This document shows, in pieces, positions 5,828 to 55,493 of a DNA stretch of 64,000 nt; the first letter of the stretch is position 1; every line of letters starts with the position of its first letter. This DNA comes from Myxococcota bacterium (GTDB taxonomy: Bacteria; Myxococcota_A; UBA796): contig JAQXDW010000052.1 in assembly GCA_029251165.1 (NCBI GenBank), positions 1,736 through 65,735 on the forward strand, given 5' to 3'. The position numbers and the translations under genes were made by a program. The notes under the pieces are model-generated. The model made no database searches. It was not told the DNA's origin and saw only the letters and a list, made by a program, of their open reading frames with translations.

Positions 5828-6958
5828 TCAGCGAATCCACGTGGTGGCAAGCTCGTTGAGGCCCGTTCCGCCGTTGTTTGTGCGCTGGTGGAAGTAGAAA
5901 CCAGCGGACTGACGGATCCAGTGCACCCCGGTGGTGCTGCCACAAGCCATGTACATCTCGGGCCAGCCCGTCACCACTTCGCTGACGGGACAGGTGGGCT
6001 CCGCCCAGTCCCAGTCACTCCACTTCGCGCCGTTGTGCCACGTGCCCGTGGTGGAGCGCAGGGCCTCGACAGCGGACGAGTCTACAGACAAGGTGTACTG
6101 CGTGAGCTCATAGAAGGTATAGCCCGTCCGAAGCATGACCTCGTCCCCCGCCGAGGCAATGCGGGTGACCCGCTCCGGAGACAAGTAGGAGCAGGCTGTG
6201 CCGTCCGTCACCGTGTCCTGGATGGTGCCCTGACTGCAGGTTCCGAGCAGGGAGATGAGCGCCCAGCCGCCCCCCTCGTAGCTCATGCTGCAGTACAGCT
6301 CGAATGCTTCCCCTCCGTCGGGATTGACCCAGTACTCGCCGTCTGAATCGAAGACGCCCTCGTCGCGAATCTCCAGACAGCTGGTCGCCGGGTTGGCGGC
6401 CGTTCCGAGCGGATCACAGTCAGGCGAGCCGTCGCAGTCGCTGTCGTCGCAGTCGGTCGCGCCGTCGTCGTCGTTGTCGATTCCATCGGAGCAATTTTCT
6501 TCTGCTTCGTCTTCTTCGCAGCCTTCGAAGCCTTCACAGCCCTCGTCGTCGCAGTCGATCGCGCCGTCGTCGTCGTTGTCGAGGCCGTCGTCACACTCGC
6601 CGGGGTCATCGCCTTCGTAGTCGACGCCCGCGCACGCCTCGTCACTGGCACAGTCGGGGTCGTCACAGTCAAACAGACCATCCCGGTCGTTGTCGGCGCC
6701 GTCGCTGCACCCGCCTGGCGTGTTGGCTTCCGAGCAGTCGGGCGAGCCAGCGCAGTCGCTGTCGTTGCAGTCGAAGTCGCCGTCGCCGTCGTTGTCAGCG
6801 CCATCCGTACACTCACCAGGGTTGAGCCCCTCGCTTGGGAGCGGCTCATCGGTCGGGTCATCCTGACCACTGCTGTCTGACTTCTCCTCACCGCAACCTG
6901 CCAGCACTCCGAGGGAGAGGCCAAGGAAAATCGCGAGGGAGCGTGCGCAAAGATTCAT
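5828..6958 (-). CDS. lipoprotein with Cys-rich DG-x-DND repeats and a C-terminal fibrinogen-related (FReD-like) domain
   Basis: ORF 5828..7039(-). Preferred start MNLCARSLAIFLGLSLGVLAGC at 6958 (lipobox). Five repeats of C-x-DG-x-DND-x-DG-x-x-DC-x-D-x-DC. C-terminus GEYWVNPDGGEAFELYCSMSYEGGGWALI resembles the fibrinogen C-domain core. Confidence 0.85.
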   Translation of the reverse strand: MNLCARSLAIFLGLSLGVLAGCGEEKSDSSGQDDPTDEPLPSEGLNPGECTDGADNDGDGDFDCNDSDCAGSPDCSEANTPGGCSDGADNDRDGLFDCDDPDCASDEACAGVDYEGDDPGECDDGLDNDDDGAIDCDDEGCEGFEGCEEDEAEENCSDGIDNDDDGATDCDDSDCDGSPDCDPLGTAANPATSCLEIRDEGVFDSDGEYWVNPDGGEAFELYCSMSYEGGGWALISLLGTCSQGTIQDTVTDGTACSYLSPERVTRIASAGDEVMLRTGYTFYELTQYTLSVDSSAVEALRSTTGTWHNGAKWSDWDWAEPTCPVSEVVTGWPEMYMACGSTTGVHWIRQSAGFYFHQRTNNGGTGLNELATTWIR

Positions 6959-49396: not shown

Positions 49397-49684
49397 TCAG
49401 CTGACCGGCTCCGGCGGCGCGACCACTGCCGAGATGGCGTGGAATGGAATCAGGCGGCGGTAGCGGCGGCCAGCATCGTCGGTGACGAAGTGGAGGACCT
49501 CGACCCAGTCCTCACCGACCTCGCCGATCTCGACCCGCGCCATGCGGTCGGTGTCGATCTCGGAGACCGGCAGCGGATCGACGAAGCCAAACGGACCGCC
49601 GCCGTTGAGCGGGCCGGCGCGCCAGGAAATCCCGGCGTCCTGTCCGGCGAGGAGGGTCGCGGCGATCTTGCTGCTGGCGGTCAT
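49397..49684 (-). CDS. hypothetical small protein
   Basis: 95-aa ORF with good GC3. No motif recognised. Confidence 0.6.
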   Translation of the reverse strand: MTASSKIAATLLAGQDAGISWRAGPLNGGGPFGFVDPLPVSEIDTDRMARVEIGEVGEDWVEVLHFVTDDAGRRYRRLIPFHAISAVVAPPEPVS

Positions 49685-49716
49685 GGCAGGCTCCTGTGTG
49701 GGTCAGGCCCCCTATC

Positions 49717-49816
49717 CTGCCGGACGGCACAGGCTGCTGCCGGACGGAACAAGCTCCTGCCGGACGGAACAAGCTGCTGCCGGATGGAACAAGCTGCTGC
49801 CGGACGAAACAATCTG
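49717..49816. repeat. 5 x 20-bp head-to-tail tandem repeat (consensus CTGCCGGACGGAACAAGCTG) in a divergent intergenic region
   Basis: Units at 49717, 49737, 49757, 49777 and 49797, with 0-3 mismatches to the consensus each. No spacers between units. Confidence 0.95.
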
Positions 49817-49909
49817 CTGGGTGGGGGGGTGCGGTGGAGAGCCCCAGACACAGGCTTCCGCATCACTGAGACTCCTCATCCCGGATCGACTCGGATACAG
49901 CACCAGTAC

Positions 49910-50479
49910 GTGGACGACCCCTACTACAGCCCCAGCCCGCTGCTCATCCTCGACCGCCCGCTGGCGCTGGTCGGCTTCCTCGGCGCGCGCGTCCCCCAGA
50001 CCGCCGCGATGTTCTCGGCGCTGACCGGCGTCCCGCTGCTGGATCTGGAGCGCATGGTGGAGCACCGGGTCGGCAGCAGCCTCGTCCGCTTTGTGCTCAC
50101 CGAAGGACTCGACGCACTGCACACCACCGAGGAGGCCCTGCTTCGACAGCAGCTCCGGCTCTCTCCGCCGCCGGTCCTCGCGCTCGGCCCAGCCACTCTC
50201 CAGCACCCCGCCAGCGCCCGGCTCATCCGTCGCCATGCCACCCTCGTCTACATCCAGCGCGACATGCTGGAGATGTACGGCAACCTGCTCGATGAGCTGG
50301 ACGATGCCTCAAGTCGCTGCTGGCTGATGGCCGGTCGGCGCCCGGGCTCTGTCGGTGACCTTCAGCCGGTCTTCGCCGGCTGGCGCGCCAGCTACGAGCG
50401 CGCTCAACACACCCTCCACGGAAGCGGCCGCTCCCCGACTGCCATCGCCAACGAGCTGATCGCACAGCTCCAGGCATAG
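49910..50479 (+). CDS. shikimate-kinase-like protein with degenerate P-loop
   Basis: In-frame GTG at 49910. LALVGFLGARVPQTAAMFSALTGVPLLDLERMVEHRVG parallels AroK (GxxGxGKT...LDxD), but GKT is replaced by RVPQT. The long track ORF from 49439 crosses the tandem repeat. Confidence 0.55.
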   Translation: MDDPYYSPSPLLILDRPLALVGFLGARVPQTAAMFSALTGVPLLDLERMVEHRVGSSLVRFVLTEGLDALHTTEEALLRQQLRLSPPPVLALGPATLQHPASARLIRRHATLVYIQRDMLEMYGNLLDELDDASSRCWLMAGRRPGSVGDLQPVFAGWRASYERAQHTLHGSGRSPTAIANELIAQLQA

Positions 50480-50510: not shown

Positions 50511-51545
50511 TCAGTAGAGGATGTTGTCGATCGGCGTCTCACCGGGCGGCAGAGACTCCTCAGGCTCGTCGAGCATCTGCCGCAGGTCGCGCTCGATGGT
50601 CCGGCACAAGGCATTCATCGGCACGTCGCCCATGCTGCGCTCGAACGGATCCTCGCTGGCGTCTCCGATGGCCTCCATCGTCATGAACACCCAGGAGATC
50701 AGCGCCGCCGCAGCGATGAACGGCACGATGTAGATGACCTCATCGGCGGTCGACACCGCCGCGCCGATGTGGTCTGCAAAGACATCCAGCAGGCCAAACG
50801 GGACCAGCACAACGAAGACCCGGGTGAAGATGCGACTGTACTCCGCATACTGCCGAGGGAAAGGTGTGTTCTTGATGCGCTCTGCCTTGCCCTGGAGCGT
50901 GTACATCTCGGTGAGCAGATCCATCAGCGCGATCTGATGGAACAGGTTGACGTGCTCGGCCTCTTTCGCCGCAGCCAGTCGCGTTCCCTGGCGGGTGACC
51001 AGGTGCGTCGCCGAGTTCAGCTTCTGCTTCATCTCGGCATGCTCCTCAGCGGAGAGGAAGGGAGAGATCTCGGTGTCCCAGTCGTTGCGCATGTGCTCGG
51101 CATGCCGCTCCAGCCGCCGCTTCGTACTCCGAGCAGGCTTGTTGAAGAAGCGGGACTTCTTCCGCAGCTGGAGACGGACGGCGTTGATCCAGGCCAAGTG
51201 TCGGTAGATCAGCTCCTGGCGCAGCGCGTGGGCCTCGGGGGAGTCATCACCGGGCCGGACATAGCTCATCACTGCAGTCCCCCAGCTGCGGCTGGTGTTG
51301 ACCACCCCACCCCAGATCTTCCGTCCTTCCCAGAACCGGTCGTAGGAAGCGTTGTTCTTGAAGCCCACATAGAACGCCACCGCGATGCCGATCGTTGAGA
51401 GGGGCTGGAACGGAATGCGGAGGAACTCCAGCTGAACGAACGTATGCAGAGAGAAGACAATGCTGGCCCAGATCGCTGCAATGGTGACGGCAGGGATCGC
51501 AAAGCCAAGCGCAATAGAGGGTCGAATTCGACGTTTAGAGAGCAT
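50511..51545 (-). CDS. bestrophin/UPF0187 (YneE-like) family membrane protein
   Basis: Start MLSKRRIRPS at 51545. FKNNASYDRFWEGRKIWGG signature. Four TM helices. Confidence 0.85.
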   Translation of the reverse strand: MLSKRRIRPSIALGFAIPAVTIAAIWASIVFSLHTFVQLEFLRIPFQPLSTIGIAVAFYVGFKNNASYDRFWEGRKIWGGVVNTSRSWGTAVMSYVRPGDDSPEAHALRQELIYRHLAWINAVRLQLRKKSRFFNKPARSTKRRLERHAEHMRNDWDTEISPFLSAEEHAEMKQKLNSATHLVTRQGTRLAAAKEAEHVNLFHQIALMDLLTEMYTLQGKAERIKNTPFPRQYAEYSRIFTRVFVVLVPFGLLDVFADHIGAAVSTADEVIYIVPFIAAAALISWVFMTMEAIGDASEDPFERSMGDVPMNALCRTIERDLRQMLDEPEESLPPGETPIDNILY

Positions 51546-51832
51546 GCTTGGGGGTCTATCGTCATGCGCAGACCAGACCAGAAGACCGCATGCCAGCGAT
51601 GAGCGCGAGCAGGACGATATCCCCCATGAAGCGTAGGGCCCTAAGAGCACGGATCCACGGTTGCAGCATCAAGACGAGCAGGCCGAACGGAACCCATCGA
51701 AGGAGAGACTGCGCGGCGCCATTTAGCTCTCCCCCATGCACAGGCTGCAGCACACAACACGCTGCCGAGCGTCAGGCTCGCCCCTGCCTGAGTCTCCGTT
51801 ACGGTACCGGGCAGAACAAGCCTGGAGCCGAC

Positions 51833-52693: not shown

Positions 52694-52775
52694 TCGAGAG
52701 GCTGGGGTACAGCATGTCTACATTCCACCAGAACAATCCAGGAATGCGGTCATGACACCTCGCCCCATCTGCTCC

Positions 52776-52816
52776 CCTCCGCGAGCTCAGAGAGACAGCC
52801 TCTGAGCTCGCGGAGG
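52776..52816. terminator. perfect 17-bp inverted repeat (7-nt loop) downstream of yghU
   Basis: CCTCCGCGAGCTCAGAG-agacagc-CTCTGAGCTCGCGGAGG. No U-tract. Also insulates the downstream TIR locus. Confidence 0.6.
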
Positions 52817-52972
52817 GCGGAAGCAGTGCTCGACTGAGGACGGGATTGGAGGGTGCTGTGAGAGGGAAACCAAGTCTTTGAGCAATCCGCCAGTTCGGAC
52901 AGCTTGTGTCCGACATGATCCCCCCTCACCCGATACATCCTCTGCATCACCCCACAACAACGGGATCGTACG

Positions 52973-53278
52973 ATGGACATCAGCTGGGAACTTCGCGACG
53001 CTCGCCTCCAGAACCGGATCGCAGACTTCGCAGACCATGGCGTCTCGTTTGTCGTCGGCATCACCGCCAGCCCGGAAGATCGCGTCGATACCCTGGAGCA
53101 GGGCGGAGAAGACTACGACAAGATGATCGTCCTCTACCAGACCCGGAACAAGTCTGAGGTCCGACGCCTCAAGCAGGACCTCAGCGAGTACTACGATGGC
53201 TACTCCGACCCGACCGGTCGCGGCACCACGCAGGGGCCTCCGTTCTACGTCTACCTCTGCCGATACAGCGAGGCTTAG
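52973..53278 (+). CDS. hypothetical 101-aa protein with a weak GIY-YIG-superfamily-like signature
   Basis: Strong GC3 bias. GVSFVVGITASPEDRVDTLEQ...KMIVLYQTRNKSEVRRLKQDLSEYY...FYVYLCRY. A TCGGACA-N5-TGTCCGA dyad lies at 52895-52913 upstream. Confidence 0.75.
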   Translation: MDISWELRDARLQNRIADFADHGVSFVVGITASPEDRVDTLEQGGEDYDKMIVLYQTRNKSEVRRLKQDLSEYYDGYSDPTGRGTTQGPPFYVYLCRYSEA

Positions 53279-53329
53279 GCATCCCCAGGGATACGCAGCA
53301 GCAGCCGGGTGTGCTGCGTAGAATGACCC

Positions 53330-54211
53330 ATGCCTTCCCCACCTGCCCGACGCTGCATCTGCGGACGCTCTCAGACACCTCCCCTGTGCGATGGCTCTCA
53401 CAGCACTGATGGCTGGCGCTGCGTCGCAGCGACCGCTCCGGTTCATGCGCGGCTGTTCGTCGCTGCACCGCACAACGACAACATCGCCGAGCGGCTGGCC
53501 CATGCCCGCCAGGGGGTCGCGCTGCACCGCCTCGCAGGCCCCGTGGTGGCGGCATCGGTGGTCGTCATCACCGACGGCGCAGAGCTCGACCTGCTGACCA
53601 CCTCCCTGGGGCGGGTCTCCGGCCCTCGCGGCAGCCCGCCCAGGCAGCGGGTGGTGCTCCTCGGAGGCGATCCCGCGCTGCTGCGGGGCGCGTTCCCCGG
53701 CAGCGCTGTCGAGTCGGTCCCGGACGAAGGCCACCCGGTCCTGCTGTGGCGACGGCTCACACAGCTCCTCGACGCCTCACCACCAGAGCCATCCACGGAG
53801 CCACCTCCGAGGCTGTTTCTCTCTCACGCCACCGCCGATGAGCCCCTCCTTCAGCCGGCCATCGCGCTGCTGCGGCGGCTGGGGGTCTCTGTGTTTGTCT
53901 GCGGAGACTCGATCCCCGGCGGCGCGCGCTGGTGGGACACGATCCTCTCGTCTCTGCACCAGTGTGACCGGCTCGTCCTCGTGCTCTCCGAGGCCGCACG
54001 GAGGTCGACGTGGTGTGCCTTTGAGGTCGGGGCCGCTGCTGCTGTGGGCAAGCCCATCCGAGTCATCTCCCTGGATGGTCAGCCACCACCATCGTTTGTC
54101 AGCCACCTCCAGATGTTCGATGTTCCCCGCATGCTTCGCCAGCGTCCCTGGCTCACGCAAGAAGACTCCGTCCTCGAGGCCATCCTCTCTTCAAGCGTGT
54201 CCGAGTCATGA
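53330..54211 (+). CDS. CDGSH iron-sulfur domain / TIR domain fusion protein
   Basis: aa 9-24 CICGRSQTPPLCDGSH fits C-x-C-x2-(S/T)-x3-P-x-C-D-G-(S/A/T)-H exactly. aa ~161-265 RLFLSHATADEPLL...VFVCGDSIPGGARWWDTILSSLHQCDRLVLVLSEAARRSTWCAFEVG...PIRVISLDG is TIR_2-like with a conserved Glu (E232). Confidence 0.85.
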   Translation: MPSPPARRCICGRSQTPPLCDGSHSTDGWRCVAATAPVHARLFVAAPHNDNIAERLAHARQGVALHRLAGPVVAASVVVITDGAELDLLTTSLGRVSGPRGSPPRQRVVLLGGDPALLRGAFPGSAVESVPDEGHPVLLWRRLTQLLDASPPEPSTEPPPRLFLSHATADEPLLQPAIALLRRLGVSVFVCGDSIPGGARWWDTILSSLHQCDRLVLVLSEAARRSTWCAFEVGAAAAVGKPIRVISLDGQPPPSFVSHLQMFDVPRMLRQRPWLTQEDSVLEAILSSSVSES

Positions 54212-54425
54212 GGGGATGCTTGGATGCCACCGAACGCCTGCCGGCAGGCACGGGAGCAGGGCACAGGACTCCAGCGGAGCCCCCGCCAGCGGGCACCACC
54301 TTCGCGACCGCTGCTGCGTGGCACCGGAGGAGGCTGACGCCATGCTCGGCGGTCGGCCCATCACGCTGTCCGGGACGACCGTCTGATAGACGTCACCAAC
54401 CGGAGCACTCCCGAAGCGTGTCCTC

Positions 54426-55493
54426 ATGATCATCATCGCATTCGTCCTCATCGCACTCTTCGCACTCTTCACCTACCGGAAGCAGGCTGCGGAGCTGGAG
54501 CGGCTGTGGAAGTCGCTGGCCGCAGAGCGCGGCCTCCAGTGGCAGCCTGGCGGCCTGCTTTCGTACCCACAGCTCGTCGGTGAGCATCGCAGCTACGCCG
54601 TCACCATCACCATCACGTCTCGCTCACAAGGAAAGAGCAAGATTCCATACACCACCGTCACCGTCAGCCCTCAGCGCCCGCTCCCTCCCCAGCTCCGCAT
54701 CACCCAGGAGGACTTCATGGATGCGATGAGCAAGATGCTCGGCGGACAGGACATCACGATTGGGGACGACCTCCTCGATCCACAGCTTCGGTTTCGCAGC
54801 TCCGATCCCGGGGCTACACGAGCCCTGTTTGCCGATCCCGAGCTGCGCCAGGCCATCGGGAGCCTGTCCAACGGCTGCCCCTACAGTCGCCTGGAGAGCG
54901 AGCAGCTCGTCCTGGAGACGAGAGGACGGCTCAACGCCGACCTCGGTGAGATGCTCGACGACACCATCATGATGGCCGCTGCCCTGGATGATGCACGGAT
55001 CAGGCCCTGGCAAGACATCGCCAGCCGGCTGGCGCTGGTGCTGAGCGACAGCCGACGCCGGGTGACCCTCACCGGCAGCCACCGAGGTCGGCAGGTCTTC
55101 CTCAGCGTGAACTTCGCAGCCAACCGCACGATCATCGACGTACCCGTCACGGGACTGCCCGCTCAGCTCACGATCACGAAGGGCGACAAGCCCGACGCCA
55201 TCCGGCTGGGGGATCCCATCCTCGACGGCATGCTCTCCGTCACCGGGAGCGACCCAGAAGCCATCCGAGCGCTGCTCCGAGATGACACCCTGCGCGGTGA
55301 GCTGCTCGCCGTCCTCCACGCCTGGCCCGGCTCTCAGCTCACGCCCAAGGGAGTCCAGCTCGTCATGCCCGGCGCGGCGGCGGTGGACCTGGAGGCACGG
55401 CTGGAGGAGACGACGGCCCTGGCGAGCACCCTGGCGCGTCGGCTGGCGCAGCGGCACGCGCGCGGAGGCGAGCGCCAGCCAGTGTCGTCGTGA
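54426..55493 (+). CDS. membrane-anchored hypothetical protein with an internal tandem duplication
   Basis: N-terminal TM helix MIIIAFVLIALFALFTY. Two homologous ~130-150-aa modules (GEHRSYAVTITI...LRITQEDF...SSDPGATRALFADPELR and GSHRGRQVFLSV...LTITKGDK...GSDPEAIRALLRDDTLR). Confidence 0.75.
   Translation: MIIIAFVLIALFALFTYRKQAAELERLWKSLAAERGLQWQPGGLLSYPQLVGEHRSYAVTITITSRSQGKSKIPYTTVTVSPQRPLPPQLRITQEDFMDAMSKMLGGQDITIGDDLLDPQLRFRSSDPGATRALFADPELRQAIGSLSNGCPYSRLESEQLVLETRGRLNADLGEMLDDTIMMAAALDDARIRPWQDIASRLALVLSDSRRRVTLTGSHRGRQVFLSVNFAANRTIIDVPVTGLPAQLTITKGDKPDAIRLGDPILDGMLSVTGSDPEAIRALLRDDTLRGELLAVLHAWPGSQLTPKGVQLVMPGAAAVDLEARLEETTALASTLARRLAQRHARGGERQPVSS

What the first reader, a model, noticed from the sequence alone, without database searches (positions are those of the whole stretch)
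52973..55493. Three-gene locus around a CDGSH(2Fe-2S)-TIR fusion: candidate undescribed redox-gated TIR signalling or defence module
ORF 53330-54211 opens with a perfect zf-CDGSH signature (CICGRSQTPPLCDGSH, nt 53354-53401). A ~130-aa uncharacterised linker follows. The ORF ends in a TIR_2-like domain (nt ~53810-54124) that keeps the Glu in the W-C-A-F-E context (E232, nt 54023-54025), the position NAD-cleaving TIRs use for catalysis. Upstream, after a 51-nt gap, is a well-coding 101-aa ORF with a GIY-YIG-superfamily-like signature. Downstream is a 355-aa membrane-anchored protein. The three genes are co-oriented and wedged between housekeeping-type genes (yghU and a crotonase). A perfect 17-bp hairpin (52776-52816) insulates them upstream. 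Bacterial TIR domains act as NADase or signal-generating effectors in Thoeris, some CBASS, Pycsar and SPARTA systems. I am not aware of any described system in which a mitoNEET-type Fe-S cluster is the covalently linked input. An Fe-S or redox sensor gating a TIR would be a new sensing logic.
Basis: partly seen in the sequence, partly recalled or inferred. Interest (0 to 1): 0.8.

Follow-up and report, generated by a model that had tools for sequence, protein, structure and literature searches.

The report
Iron-sulfur-motif TIR enzyme, stand-alone gene
The middle gene encodes a real, conserved and undescribed protein family that joins an iron-sulfur-type (CDGSH) motif to a TIR enzyme domain, but it acts as a single gene linked to oxidative-stress and kinase genes, not as a three-gene phage-defence module.

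Summary
The sequence observation largely holds. ORF 53330-54211 encodes a 293-aa protein with three parts: a complete CDGSH cluster-binding motif at its N-terminus, a confidently folded but unassignable alpha/beta domain (not a linker), and a C-terminal TIR_2 domain with the catalytic-position Glu.

About 90 representatives (clusters at 50% identity), mostly from marine Myxococcota, share this cassette. The Cys/His ligands and the Glu are almost invariant. No other effector replaces the TIR.

The three-gene module is not supported:
- The 355-aa downstream gene occurs next to the fusion only in a 98%-identical strain. In a relative with a 71%-identical fusion protein it is absent, and its own homologues sit without the fusion.
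- The 101-aa upstream gene is a clade-restricted ORFan. It pairs with the fusion only in the subclade at 64% identity or more.

No defence context was found: no PADLOC hits in the flanks, and no family members on phage, plasmid or viral contigs.

Different lineages place the gene next to antioxidant or redox enzymes: MsrA (start/stop overlap), OYE, glutathione peroxidase, DJ-1/PfpI, flavin reductase and GST. Others place it next to Ser/Thr kinases. Some members are fused to a kinase or a nucleotide cyclase.

Best reading: a redox/Fe-S-controlled TIR NADase in stress signalling. This is inferred, not shown. It is a new variant of a known kind and of moderate interest.

The parts
53330..54211 (+). 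Gene B: 293-aa CDGSH-motif / alpha-beta domain / TIR protein. This is the actual finding.
   Evidence: ORF. Pfam TIR_2 51.9 bits and zf-CDGSH 24.3 bits. 27 close homologue clusters. About 98 representatives (clusters at 50% identity) with E<=1e-10 to the N-terminal profile. AF2 pLDDT 88, pTM 0.79.
53354..53401 (+). CDGSH cluster-binding motif, C9-x-C11-x2-S14-x3-P18-x-C20-D-G-S-H24 (putative 3Cys-1His ligands).
   Evidence: Read directly from the sequence. The profile aligns to the 2Fe-2S loops of 3tbn, CISD3 (6avj) and mitoNEET. The ligands are nearly invariant in the family.
53414..53422 (+). Family-specific W29-x-C31 just after the motif; role unknown.
   Evidence: W29 87/87 and C31 84/87 across family representatives. 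The three CDGSH alignments printed stop before or at this position, so it could not be compared there.
53435..53779 (+). Middle alpha/beta domain (about aa 36-150, four beta-alpha units), unassigned. Its most conserved position is D82 (78/89), followed by G83 (70/89).
   Evidence: pLDDT 90-97. No Pfam hit. Best Foldseek PDB E-value 0.087. hhalign against the TIR domain gives probability 1.9%.
53810..54187 (+). TIR domain (about aa 161-286) with the F-x-S-H-A-x2-D-E and W-C-A-F-E232 motifs.
   Evidence: TIR_2 above gathering score. Foldseek probability 1.0 to Hydra TRR-2, AbTir 7uxu, MyD88, SPARTA, SpbK and SARM1. E232 aligns to the Glu of Cat1 and BtpA. E232 69/70.
52973..53278 (+). Gene A: 101-aa clade-restricted small protein. 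It is paired with B only in the subclade where B is at least 64% identical.
   Evidence: 11 homologue clusters, ten of 101 aa and one 116-aa variant, identity 61-94%. Upstream of B in L007-9, L032/33, L034/35, L037, L038 and the P0002 contig, with differing outer flanks. The stop overlaps the B start (TGATG) in L034/35. Absent from all more distant loci.
54426..55493 (+). Gene C: 355-aa protein with an N-terminal hydrophobic helix and an internal duplication. Judged NOT part of the unit.
   Evidence: Found next to B only in L036, a 98%-identical strain. In L033 the crotonase gene starts 11 nt after B. C homologues in L081-L083 lack B. Internal repeat aa 50-187 against 215-336, E 1e-14.
52775..52817 (.). 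Perfect 18-bp inverted repeat between the GST gene and gene A. Probably the GST transcript's terminator or stabiliser (inference).
   Evidence: z = -5.86. Single copy in the window. No T-tract, and not called by the terminator scan.

Best explanation
Gene B is a self-sufficient cytoplasmic sensor-enzyme of (mainly marine) Myxococcota.

Proposed mechanism:
1. The N-terminal mini-CDGSH loop (C9, C11, C20, H24) ligates a redox-active, labile [2Fe-2S] cluster. This is inferred from motif identity to solved CDGSH proteins.
2. The loop sits on a family-specific alpha/beta domain.
3. The C-terminal TIR is of the BtpA/AbTir-like F-x-S-H-A...W/F-x3-E type. It cleaves NAD+ and may make an ADP-ribose-derived signal. 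This is inferred from the fold and from the conserved Glu at the position where Cat1 and BtpA/TcpB also carry a Glu (their NADase role is from my own knowledge).
4. Oxidation, loss or nitrosylation of the cluster changes the N-terminal module. That changes TIR self-association and activity, coupling oxidative or electrophile stress (or iron status) to NAD+ turnover or signalling.

Recurrent fusion and adjacency to Hanks-type Ser/Thr kinases, and one fusion to a class III nucleotide cyclase, place the cassette in the host's signal-transduction network rather than in anti-phage immunity.

Gene A is a lineage-specific, probably co-transcribed small partner of unknown role. Gene C is an unrelated lineage-specific insertion.

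Shown: architecture, conservation, fold, distribution and neighbourhoods. Inferred: cluster binding, NADase activity, gating and physiological role.
For: Architecture and fold.

Purifying selection on both ends across representatives only 24-44% identical to the query. C9 82/84, C11 83/84, C20 86/87, H24 87/87, E232 69/70.

The cassette is indivisible. Of 92 proteins found with the N-terminal profile, 72 carry TIR_2. The remainder are probably fragments, since 18 of the 92 are under 200 aa. No alternative effector appears. An apparent CDGSH-less member was a mis-called start.

Signalling fusions: Pkinase-CDGSH-mid-TIR in P0043, P0049, P0054 and P0066. CDGSH-mid-TIR-Guanylate_cyc in P0032 and L046.

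Kinase neighbours:
- Pkinase-FGE-sulfatase, convergent, in L007-9, L034/35, L039 and L041/42.
- Pkinase-AAA_16-TPR, divergent, in L014 and L021.
- TIR_2-Pkinase-FHA in L015.

Redox-enzyme neighbours in separate lineages:
- msrA, with a GTGA stop/start overlap in L048 and L053 and a short gap in L049.
- OYE upstream in L001-4 and L084.
- Flavin reductase in L046/L064, and NUDIX in L042.
- Glutathione peroxidase in L045/L012, DJ-1/PfpI in L017 (the L060 and L062 upstream neighbours cluster with it), and FAD amine oxidase in L069.
- GST in the window and in L007.

B is flanked on both sides by opposite-strand genes in several loci, so it is often monocistronic.

No defence context.
Against: No biochemistry supports any step.

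The CDGSH region is only the 16-17-residue loop, with about 8 residues before it. It lacks the beta-cap of solved CDGSH domains. The Pfam score is below threshold in the window protein. AF2 confidence there is about 50. Zn binding or no metal cannot be excluded.

A Glu at the catalytic position also occurs in non-enzymatic TIRs such as TLR2.

The redox-neighbour theme is a category-level association. Each case is probably one evolutionary event. My gene calls were a home-made GC3 heuristic, and no formal background test was run.

Ser/Thr kinases are, from my own knowledge, very abundant in Myxococcota. Kinase genes lay within 6 kb in 8 of about 52 identity-distinct locus groups, which may be near chance.

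The window itself has no kinase neighbour.

Single-gene TIR defence proteins exist, so the absence of partners does not exclude defence.
Confidence: 0.4

Rival explanations
1. Single-gene abortive-infection or anti-phage TIR protein (like SpbK or stand-alone AbTir-type TIRs). The CDGSH/alpha-beta module senses a phage-induced perturbation, or a phage protein, and unleashes NAD+ depletion.
For: TIR fold closest to NADase and defence TIRs: AbTir, SPARTA, SpbK and Cat1. Weak PADLOC ThsB hits, best 5.5e-10. Immediate surroundings vary even between close relatives. Two DNA methylases appear among about 100 neighbours.
Against: No PADLOC hits in ten window flank proteins. No recurrent defence genes among about 40 contexts. 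No family member in phage GenBank, PLSDB plasmids or IMG/VR. Local synteny (SKI-GST-A-B) and identity track each other, as in vertical descent. Fusions are to kinases and a cyclase, and operon partners are antioxidant enzymes.
Confidence: 0.2
2. The Cys/His motif is a structural Zn (or constitutive Fe-S) site with no sensing role. The protein is a metabolic N-glycosidase acting on NAD+ or on nucleotides or nucleosides (as NDT/DNPH1-like enzymes do), used in housekeeping nucleotide or NAD turnover.
For: Sub-threshold Nuc_deoxyrib_tr hits in 15 of 92 members. The motif AFE-x-G-x-A-A-A-x-G-K resembles that of 2-deoxyribosyltransferase 6qai. DNPH1 appears among the fold hits. A NUDIX gene lies upstream in L042. 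The gene sits in a housekeeping-type context.
Against: TIR_2 scores far better than Nuc_deoxyrib_tr (51.9 against 20.6 bits). The motif matches 2Fe-2S CDGSH loops residue for residue. Kinase and cyclase fusions argue for signalling.
Confidence: 0.13
3. Non-enzymatic TIR. The domain is a homotypic scaffold that recruits Ser/Thr kinases or other TIR proteins, and the CDGSH module controls assembly.
For: Fusion to Pkinase. A TIR_2-Pkinase-FHA protein lies 1.5 kb from a homologue in L015. Good fold matches to scaffold TIRs such as MyD88, TRR-2 and TLR1.
Against: The Glu, the aromatic residue four positions before it and the F-x-S-H-A-x2-D-E motif are near-invariant, as in BtpA and Cat1 (which I know as NADases). 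From my own knowledge, every bacterial TIR tested so far that keeps this Glu is an enzyme.
Confidence: 0.12
4. One reading: A, B and C form a three-gene signalling or defence operon.
For: The genes are co-oriented with short gaps in the window. A and B are adjacent, and overlap in L034/35, within one subclade.
Against: C occurs next to B only in a 98%-identical strain, is missing in L033, and occurs elsewhere without B. A is absent from all loci where B is 58% identical or less. There is a 214-nt gap between B and C.
Confidence: 0.03

Closest known systems
Bacterial TIR_2 NADases with an N-terminal accessory region (AbTir, BtpA/TcpB, PdTIR)
   Same: C-terminal TIR fold (7uxu TM 0.69, 4lzp). 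The F-x-S-H-A-x2-D/E start motif, and the Glu preceded by an aromatic residue four positions earlier. Encoded as a stand-alone gene.
   Different: The N-terminal region here is a CDGSH metal motif plus a novel alpha/beta domain rather than a coiled coil. The hosts are free-living marine Myxococcota. The neighbours are antioxidant enzymes and kinases.
CDGSH iron-sulfur domain proteins (mitoNEET/CISD1-3; bacterial types 3, 4 and 6, e.g. 3tbn, 3tbm, 3tbo)
   Same: The full C-x-C-x2-(S/T)-x3-P-x-C-D-G-(S/A/T)-H signature, aligned to solved 2Fe-2S loops.
   Different: Only the loop is present, matching Pfam positions 32-48 of 48. There is no beta-cap and only a single copy, at the extreme N-terminus. 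An extra invariant W-x-C follows it. The published classification lists fusions only to a glutamate-synthase FMN domain and to DUF1271 (PMC3174974).
Thoeris ThsB
   Same: A TIR domain. Weak hits to ThsB models.
   Different: No ThsA or other effector nearby in any of about 40 contexts. Scores are far below those of family members. Not in defence islands.
Sensor-gated TIR enzymes (SARM1 ARM-SAM-TIR; Cat1 CARF-TIR; TIR-STING; SPARTA)
   Same: The logic of a covalently linked input domain controlling TIR oligomerisation and NADase activity. Fold matches.
   Different: The input would be a metal or redox centre instead of a nucleotide or nucleic-acid ligand. The regulatory parts share no homology.
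Fe-S cluster redox sensors (SoxR, IscR, NsrR, FNR, Wbl proteins)
   Same: A proposed use of a labile cluster as a stress sensor. This is an analogy from general knowledge.
   Different: Those proteins are transcription factors. Here the output would be an enzyme domain. No sequence relationship was tested or expected.

Membership tests
TIR_2 (PF13676) / TIR fold | Profile score above Pfam gathering threshold | tested here: met
   51.9 bits against 28, aa 163-266. 72 of 92 family representatives also hit.
TIR_2 (PF13676) / TIR fold | Flavodoxin-like TIR three-dimensional fold | tested here: met
   AF2 pLDDT above 90 in this region. Foldseek probability 1.0 to many TIR structures.
NAD+-cleaving TIR enzymes | Catalytic Glu at the conserved helix position | tested here: met
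   E232 aligns with the Glu of Cat1 and BtpA/TcpB. Conserved 69/70.
NAD+-cleaving TIR enzymes | Measured NADase or cyclase activity | not testable with these tools
   Needs an enzyme assay.
zf-CDGSH (PF09360) / CISD | Signature C-x-C-x2-(S/T)-x3-P-x-C-D-G-(S/A/T)-H with 3Cys-1His | tested here: met
   Exact match at aa 9-24. Aligned to 3tbn, 6avj and mitoNEET. Ligands 82-87 of 84-87.
zf-CDGSH (PF09360) / CISD | Profile score above gathering threshold, with the whole domain (beta-cap plus cluster module) | tested here: not met
   24.3 against 29.5 bits. Only profile positions 32-48 of 48 match, and only 8 residues precede the motif. A few relatives reach 30-31 bits.
zf-CDGSH (PF09360) / CISD | Binds a [2Fe-2S] cluster | not testable with these tools
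   Needs UV-vis, EPR or metal analysis.
Thoeris | ThsB TIR gene adjacent to a ThsA (SIR2/SLOG or equivalent) effector | tested here: not met
   No conserved partner in all-against-all neighbour clustering. SIR2 and SLOG are not among the 25 commonest Pfam families of the +-2 neighbours.
Thoeris | Strong match to ThsB models | tested here: inconclusive
   Best PADLOC ThsB hit is 37 bits, E 5.5e-10, over about 80 residues. Pfam ThsB_TIR E 0.36.
Defence-island gene | Embedded among known defence or mobile genes; present on mobile elements | tested here: not met
   No PADLOC hit in 10 flank proteins. Flanks are housekeeping-type. No members in phages, plasmids or IMG/VR.
GIY-YIG / MUG113 (gene A) | Profile score above threshold | tested here: not met
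   MUG113 17.3 against 22.3 bits, E 0.0076. No other library hit.

The most novel reading that the evidence does not exclude
A labile [2Fe-2S] cluster in a minimal CDGSH loop directly gates a TIR NADase. Oxidative, nitrosative or iron stress would then be converted into NAD+ depletion or an ADP-ribose-derived second messenger. That signal would feed into Ser/Thr-kinase and cyclic-nucleotide signalling in Myxococcota. This would be a non-immune, housekeeping stress-signalling use of a bacterial TIR enzyme, with a metal-cluster input not described for any TIR.
Probability: 0.25. Interest if true: 0.8.

Novelty: new variant of a known kind. Interest (0 to 1): 0.55.

Why it matters
Bacterial TIR enzymes are currently understood almost entirely as immune effectors or signal generators, triggered by phage cues or nucleotide ligands. 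This family would instead have a covalently attached redox or metal centre as its input. Its genomic company is antioxidant enzymes and eukaryote-like kinases. Together these would make testable the idea that TIR-based NAD+ chemistry is also used for physiological stress signalling. It would also give the poorly understood bacterial CDGSH motif a concrete output. The protein is small (293 aa), soluble and single-gene, so the test is cheap.

Tried and rejected
- **Middle domain as a degenerate second TIR.** hhalign probability is 1.9%. Foldseek found no PDB match better than E 0.087. Rejected; the domain stays unassigned.
- **Apparent frameshift or pseudogene of gene A in L034/L035.** It is an artefact of a run of N in both records. 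The reading frame is otherwise intact, and the A stop overlaps the B start.
- **CDGSH-less family members.** P0023 is a mis-called start. The motif lies 29 codons upstream in frame.
- **C homologous to the ~300-aa gene downstream of B in L007 and L034.** No similarity. That ~300-aa gene is a different conserved neighbour, and it is absent from the window.
- **A kinase (Pkinase-FGE-sulfatase) elsewhere in the window.** None found by tblastn.
- **The hairpin as a repeated REP-like element.** It is single copy in the window.
- **NCBIfam, PHROGs and PADLOC naming of A, B and C.** Nothing above threshold.
- **Home-made GC3 gene caller.** It mis-handled some loci: B was not called in 10, and the start codon was over-extended in others. 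I therefore used it only to nominate neighbours, which were then checked by Pfam.
- **No formal enrichment statistic was computed.**
Full report
**1. Observation**

The three co-oriented ORFs exist as described:
- A: 52973-53278, 101 aa.
- B: 53330-54211, 293 aa.
- C: 54426-55493, 355 aa.

B opens with RRCICGRSQTPPLCDGSH. Residues 9-24 (nt 53354-53401) fit the CDGSH signature C-x-C-x2-S-x3-P-x-C-D-G-S-H exactly.

Pfam results for B:
- TIR_2 scores 51.9 bits against a gathering score of 28, over aa 163-266.
- zf-CDGSH scores 24.3 bits, below its 29.5-bit threshold. It matches only profile positions 32-48 of 48. Only the cluster-binding loop is present, not the beta-strands that precede it in canonical CDGSH domains.

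A profile of the N-terminal 157 residues aligns this loop to the 2Fe-2S-binding loops of solved CDGSH proteins: 3tbn, CISD3 (6avj) and mitoNEET.

E232 (nt 54023-54025) sits in W-C-A-F-E. It aligns with the Glu of Cat1 and BtpA/TcpB, and also with the Glu of non-enzymatic TLR2.

The hairpin is real: 18-nt perfect arms at 52775-52792 and 52800-52817, -47.8 kcal/mol, z = -5.9. It is single copy in the window.

The flanks are a bestrophin, a YghU-like GST and an enoyl-CoA hydratase.

The 'GIY-YIG-like' claim for A rests only on a sub-threshold MUG113 hit, 17.3 against 22.3 bits.

**2. Structure of B**

With a 27-sequence alignment, AlphaFold2 gives pLDDT 88 and pTM 0.79.
- Residues 1-30, the metal loop, are modelled at low confidence. 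I expect this, because AlphaFold2 does not model metal clusters.
- Residues about 36-150 are not a linker. They form a confidently predicted four-unit beta-alpha domain.
- Residues 161-286 form a TIR fold.

Foldseek against the PDB returns TIR domains at probability 1.0: Hydra TRR-2, AbTir 7uxu, MyD88, SPARTA, SpbK and SARM1.

The N-terminal half was modelled alone at pLDDT 85.
- It has no PDB match better than E 0.087.
- It has no Pfam hit.
- It shows no detectable relationship to the TIR half: hhalign probability 1.9%.

It is therefore an unassigned Rossmann-like domain.

**3. The family**

A word-indexed search found 27 clusters with the full architecture, at 35-86% identity.

An exhaustive HMM search with the N-terminal profile found 733 proteins at E<=1e-3. 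The lower-ranked hits listed match only the motif region, often several times per protein, as ordinary multi-motif CDGSH proteins would. It found 98 proteins at E<=1e-10.

I aligned 92 of these, and most are 270-300 aa long. Of the 92, 79 hit zf-CDGSH and 72 hit TIR_2. The rest are probably fragments, since 18 of the 92 are under 200 aa. No other effector domain ever replaces the TIR.

These representatives are only 24-44% identical to the query, yet key residues are almost invariant:

| Residue | Conserved |
|---|---|
| C9 | 82/84 |
| C11 | 83/84 |
| C20 | 86/87 |
| D21 | 86/87 |
| H24 | 87/87 |
| W29 | 87/87 |
| C31 | 84/87 |
| S165 / H166 | 76/79 and 78/79 |
| D170 | 79/79 |
| E232 | 69/70 |
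| G234 | 70/70 |

One apparently CDGSH-less member (P0023) is a mis-called start. The motif is encoded 29 codons upstream in frame.

Species-representative genomes that carry the family are mostly Myxococcota or Polyangiaceae MAGs. A few contigs are binned as Planctomycetota, Dehalococcoidia or 'Enterobacterales'. Metagenome hits include Tara Oceans and seawater-metagenome records.

**4. Is it a three-gene unit? No**

*Gene C.* tblastn of A, B and C against more than 80 fetched loci finds C next to B only in L036, a 98%-identical strain.
- In L033, where B is 71% identical, the crotonase gene starts 11 nt after B. C is therefore an insertion specific to the window's lineage.
- C has eight homologue clusters. 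Those with context (L081, L082, L083) lack B.
- C has an N-terminal hydrophobic helix and an internal duplication.

*Gene A.* A is a clade-restricted ORFan. It has 11 clusters, ten of 101 aa and one 116-aa variant, at 61-94% identity.
- It lies upstream of B in every locus where B is at least 64% identical: L007-9, L032/33, L034/35, L037, L038 and the P0002 contig.
- The genes outside the pair differ between those loci. In L034/35 the A stop overlaps the B start. A-B is therefore probably a true pair in that subclade.
- A is absent from all more distant loci.

*Wider neighbourhood.*
- All-against-all clustering of neighbouring ORFs finds no gene that accompanies B across the family.
- A census of about 100 genes within two positions of B, in about 40 contexts, gives 104 different Pfam families. 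None is dominant.
- In several loci B is bracketed by opposite-strand genes, so it is monocistronic there.

**5. Defence?**

No positive evidence was found.
- B hits PADLOC ThsB models only weakly, best 37 bits. A and C hit nothing.
- Ten flanking proteins in the window have no PADLOC hit. Their Pfam assignments are housekeeping-type: DUF2330, shikimate kinase, TonB-dependent receptor and beta-lactamase-fold.
- No family member occurs in GenBank phages, PLSDB plasmids or IMG/VR. Only distant TIR-only hits appear.
- The window and L007 share the gene order SKI-GST-A-B.

Single-gene TIR defence cannot be excluded. I rate it at 0.2.

**6. What the contexts do show**

(a) *Signalling fusions.* Four representatives are Pkinase-CDGSH-mid-TIR proteins of about 590 aa. 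One lineage is CDGSH-mid-TIR-guanylate/adenylate cyclase (P0032, L046).

(b) *Ser/Thr kinase neighbours.*
- Pkinase-FGE-sulfatase, convergent, just downstream in L007-9, L034/35 (split into two genes), L039 and L041/42.
- Pkinase-AAA_16-TPR, divergent, in L014 and L021.
- TIR_2-Pkinase-FHA in L015, and a Pkinase in L054 and L084.

(c) *Antioxidant and redox enzymes directly adjacent, in separate lineages.*
- msrA, with a GTGA stop/start overlap in L048 and L053 and a short gap in L049.
- Old-yellow-enzyme upstream in L001-4 and L084.
- Flavin reductase upstream of the cyclase-fused form.
- Glutathione peroxidase, divergent at 42 nt, in L045/L012.
- DJ-1/PfpI, divergent at 12 nt, in L017; the L060 and L062 upstream neighbours (24 nt) cluster with it.
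- FAD amine oxidase 21 nt upstream in L069.
- GST in the window and in L007.
- A NUDIX gene upstream in L041/42.

Pairwise identities show that each of these is essentially one lineage-level event. This amounts to roughly 6-7 independent redox adjacencies among about 20 deep lineages.

My judgement, from general knowledge of how rare MsrA, Gpx, DJ-1 and OYE genes are in a genome, is that this is well above background. I did not run a formal test. The kinase association may be close to chance, because Myxococcota encode very many kinases.

**7. Mechanism proposed**

B is a stand-alone sensor-enzyme.
- The mini-CDGSH loop holds a labile, redox-active 2Fe-2S cluster on the alpha/beta domain.
- The state of the cluster controls self-association and NAD+-cleaving activity of the BtpA/AbTir-like TIR.
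- This links oxidative or electrophile (or iron) stress to NAD+ turnover or an ADP-ribose-derived signal, integrated with kinase and cyclase signalling.

Shown: architecture, fold, conservation, indivisibility of the cassette, distribution and contexts. Inferred: metal binding, catalysis, gating and physiological role.

Confidence is about 0.4. The rivals are a single-gene abortive-infection TIR (0.2), a structural metal site with a metabolic N-glycosidase (0.13), a non-enzymatic scaffold (0.12) and the three-gene operon (0.03).

**8. Comparison with what is known**

The TIR half meets the TIR_2 and TIR-fold criteria.

The CDGSH half meets the signature criterion. It fails the whole-domain and profile-threshold criterion. 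I therefore call it a CDGSH-type motif, not a CDGSH domain.

Thoeris membership fails for lack of ThsA.

The published CISD classification has seven types. It lists fusions only to a glutamate-synthase FMN domain and to DUF1271 (PMC3174974). A later CDGSH phylogeny mentions no fusions (PMC5859297). No relevant paper in the library holds both 'CDGSH' and 'TIR domain', or 'CDGSH' and 'anti-phage'. Where public sources give a name, it is 'hypothetical protein'.

**9. Verdict**

This is a real, conserved and uncharacterised CDGSH-motif/TIR family. It is a new variant of a known kind, namely sensor-linked TIR enzymes.

The three-gene module is wrong, and the defence reading is unsupported. Interest is 0.55.

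Noticed in passing
window 49717-49819: A 20-nt tandem repeat (CTGCCGGACGGAACAAGCTG, 5.2 copies, 90% matches) lies just upstream of the shikimate-kinase domain coding region (49910-50479). It falls inside the long 5' extension of ORF 49439-50479.
   Followed up: no
window 54426-55493: Gene C has an N-terminal hydrophobic helix (aa 1-17) and an internal duplication (aa 50-187 against 215-336, 31% identity, E 1e-14). Its few homologues sit near a DbpA-type DEAD-box helicase in L081 and L082.
   Followed up: partly
window 53414-53422 (W29-x-C31 of gene B): An invariant Trp and a fifth conserved Cys follow the CDGSH motif throughout the family. The CDGSH protein alignments I saw do not extend to this position. 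It may be an alternative ligand or a redox-switch thiol.
   Followed up: no
L048 about 1610-1616; L053 about 5996-6002: The stop codon of msrA (peptide methionine sulfoxide reductase) overlaps the GTG start of the CDGSH-TIR gene (GTGA). This implies translational coupling in that lineage.
   Followed up: yes
L015 10292-12283 (-): A TIR_2-Pkinase-FHA multidomain protein is encoded 1.5 kb from a CDGSH-TIR homologue.
   Followed up: no
P0043, P0049, P0054, P0066; P0032 / L046 659-2062: Longer family members fuse the whole cassette to an N-terminal Ser/Thr kinase, or to a C-terminal class III nucleotide cyclase. In the cyclase form (L046) the Cys three residues before the Glu is Ser.
   Followed up: partly
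L007 7145-8047; L034 6914-7858; L035 2125-3030: A conserved ~300-aa protein with no Pfam hit (53-54% identity between lineages) follows the A-B pair. It precedes a convergent Pkinase-FGE-sulfatase gene. It is absent from the window.
   Followed up: partly
L041/L042 (L042 5330-5881): A NUDIX hydrolase gene lies 120 nt upstream of a CDGSH-TIR homologue, on the same strand. It could be relevant to ADP-ribose handling.
   Followed up: no
L034 about 5872-5918; L035 about 1046-1105: A run of N interrupts gene A at the same point in two independent records. It first looked like a frameshift.
   Followed up: yes
window 50511-51650 (-) compared with L007: Relative to L007, the window has a bestrophin-family gene inserted between the shikimate-kinase and GST genes. 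L007 instead has cytochrome c and a GSDH-type dehydrogenase between GST and gene A. This stretch is a local hotspot of gene gain and loss.
   Followed up: partly
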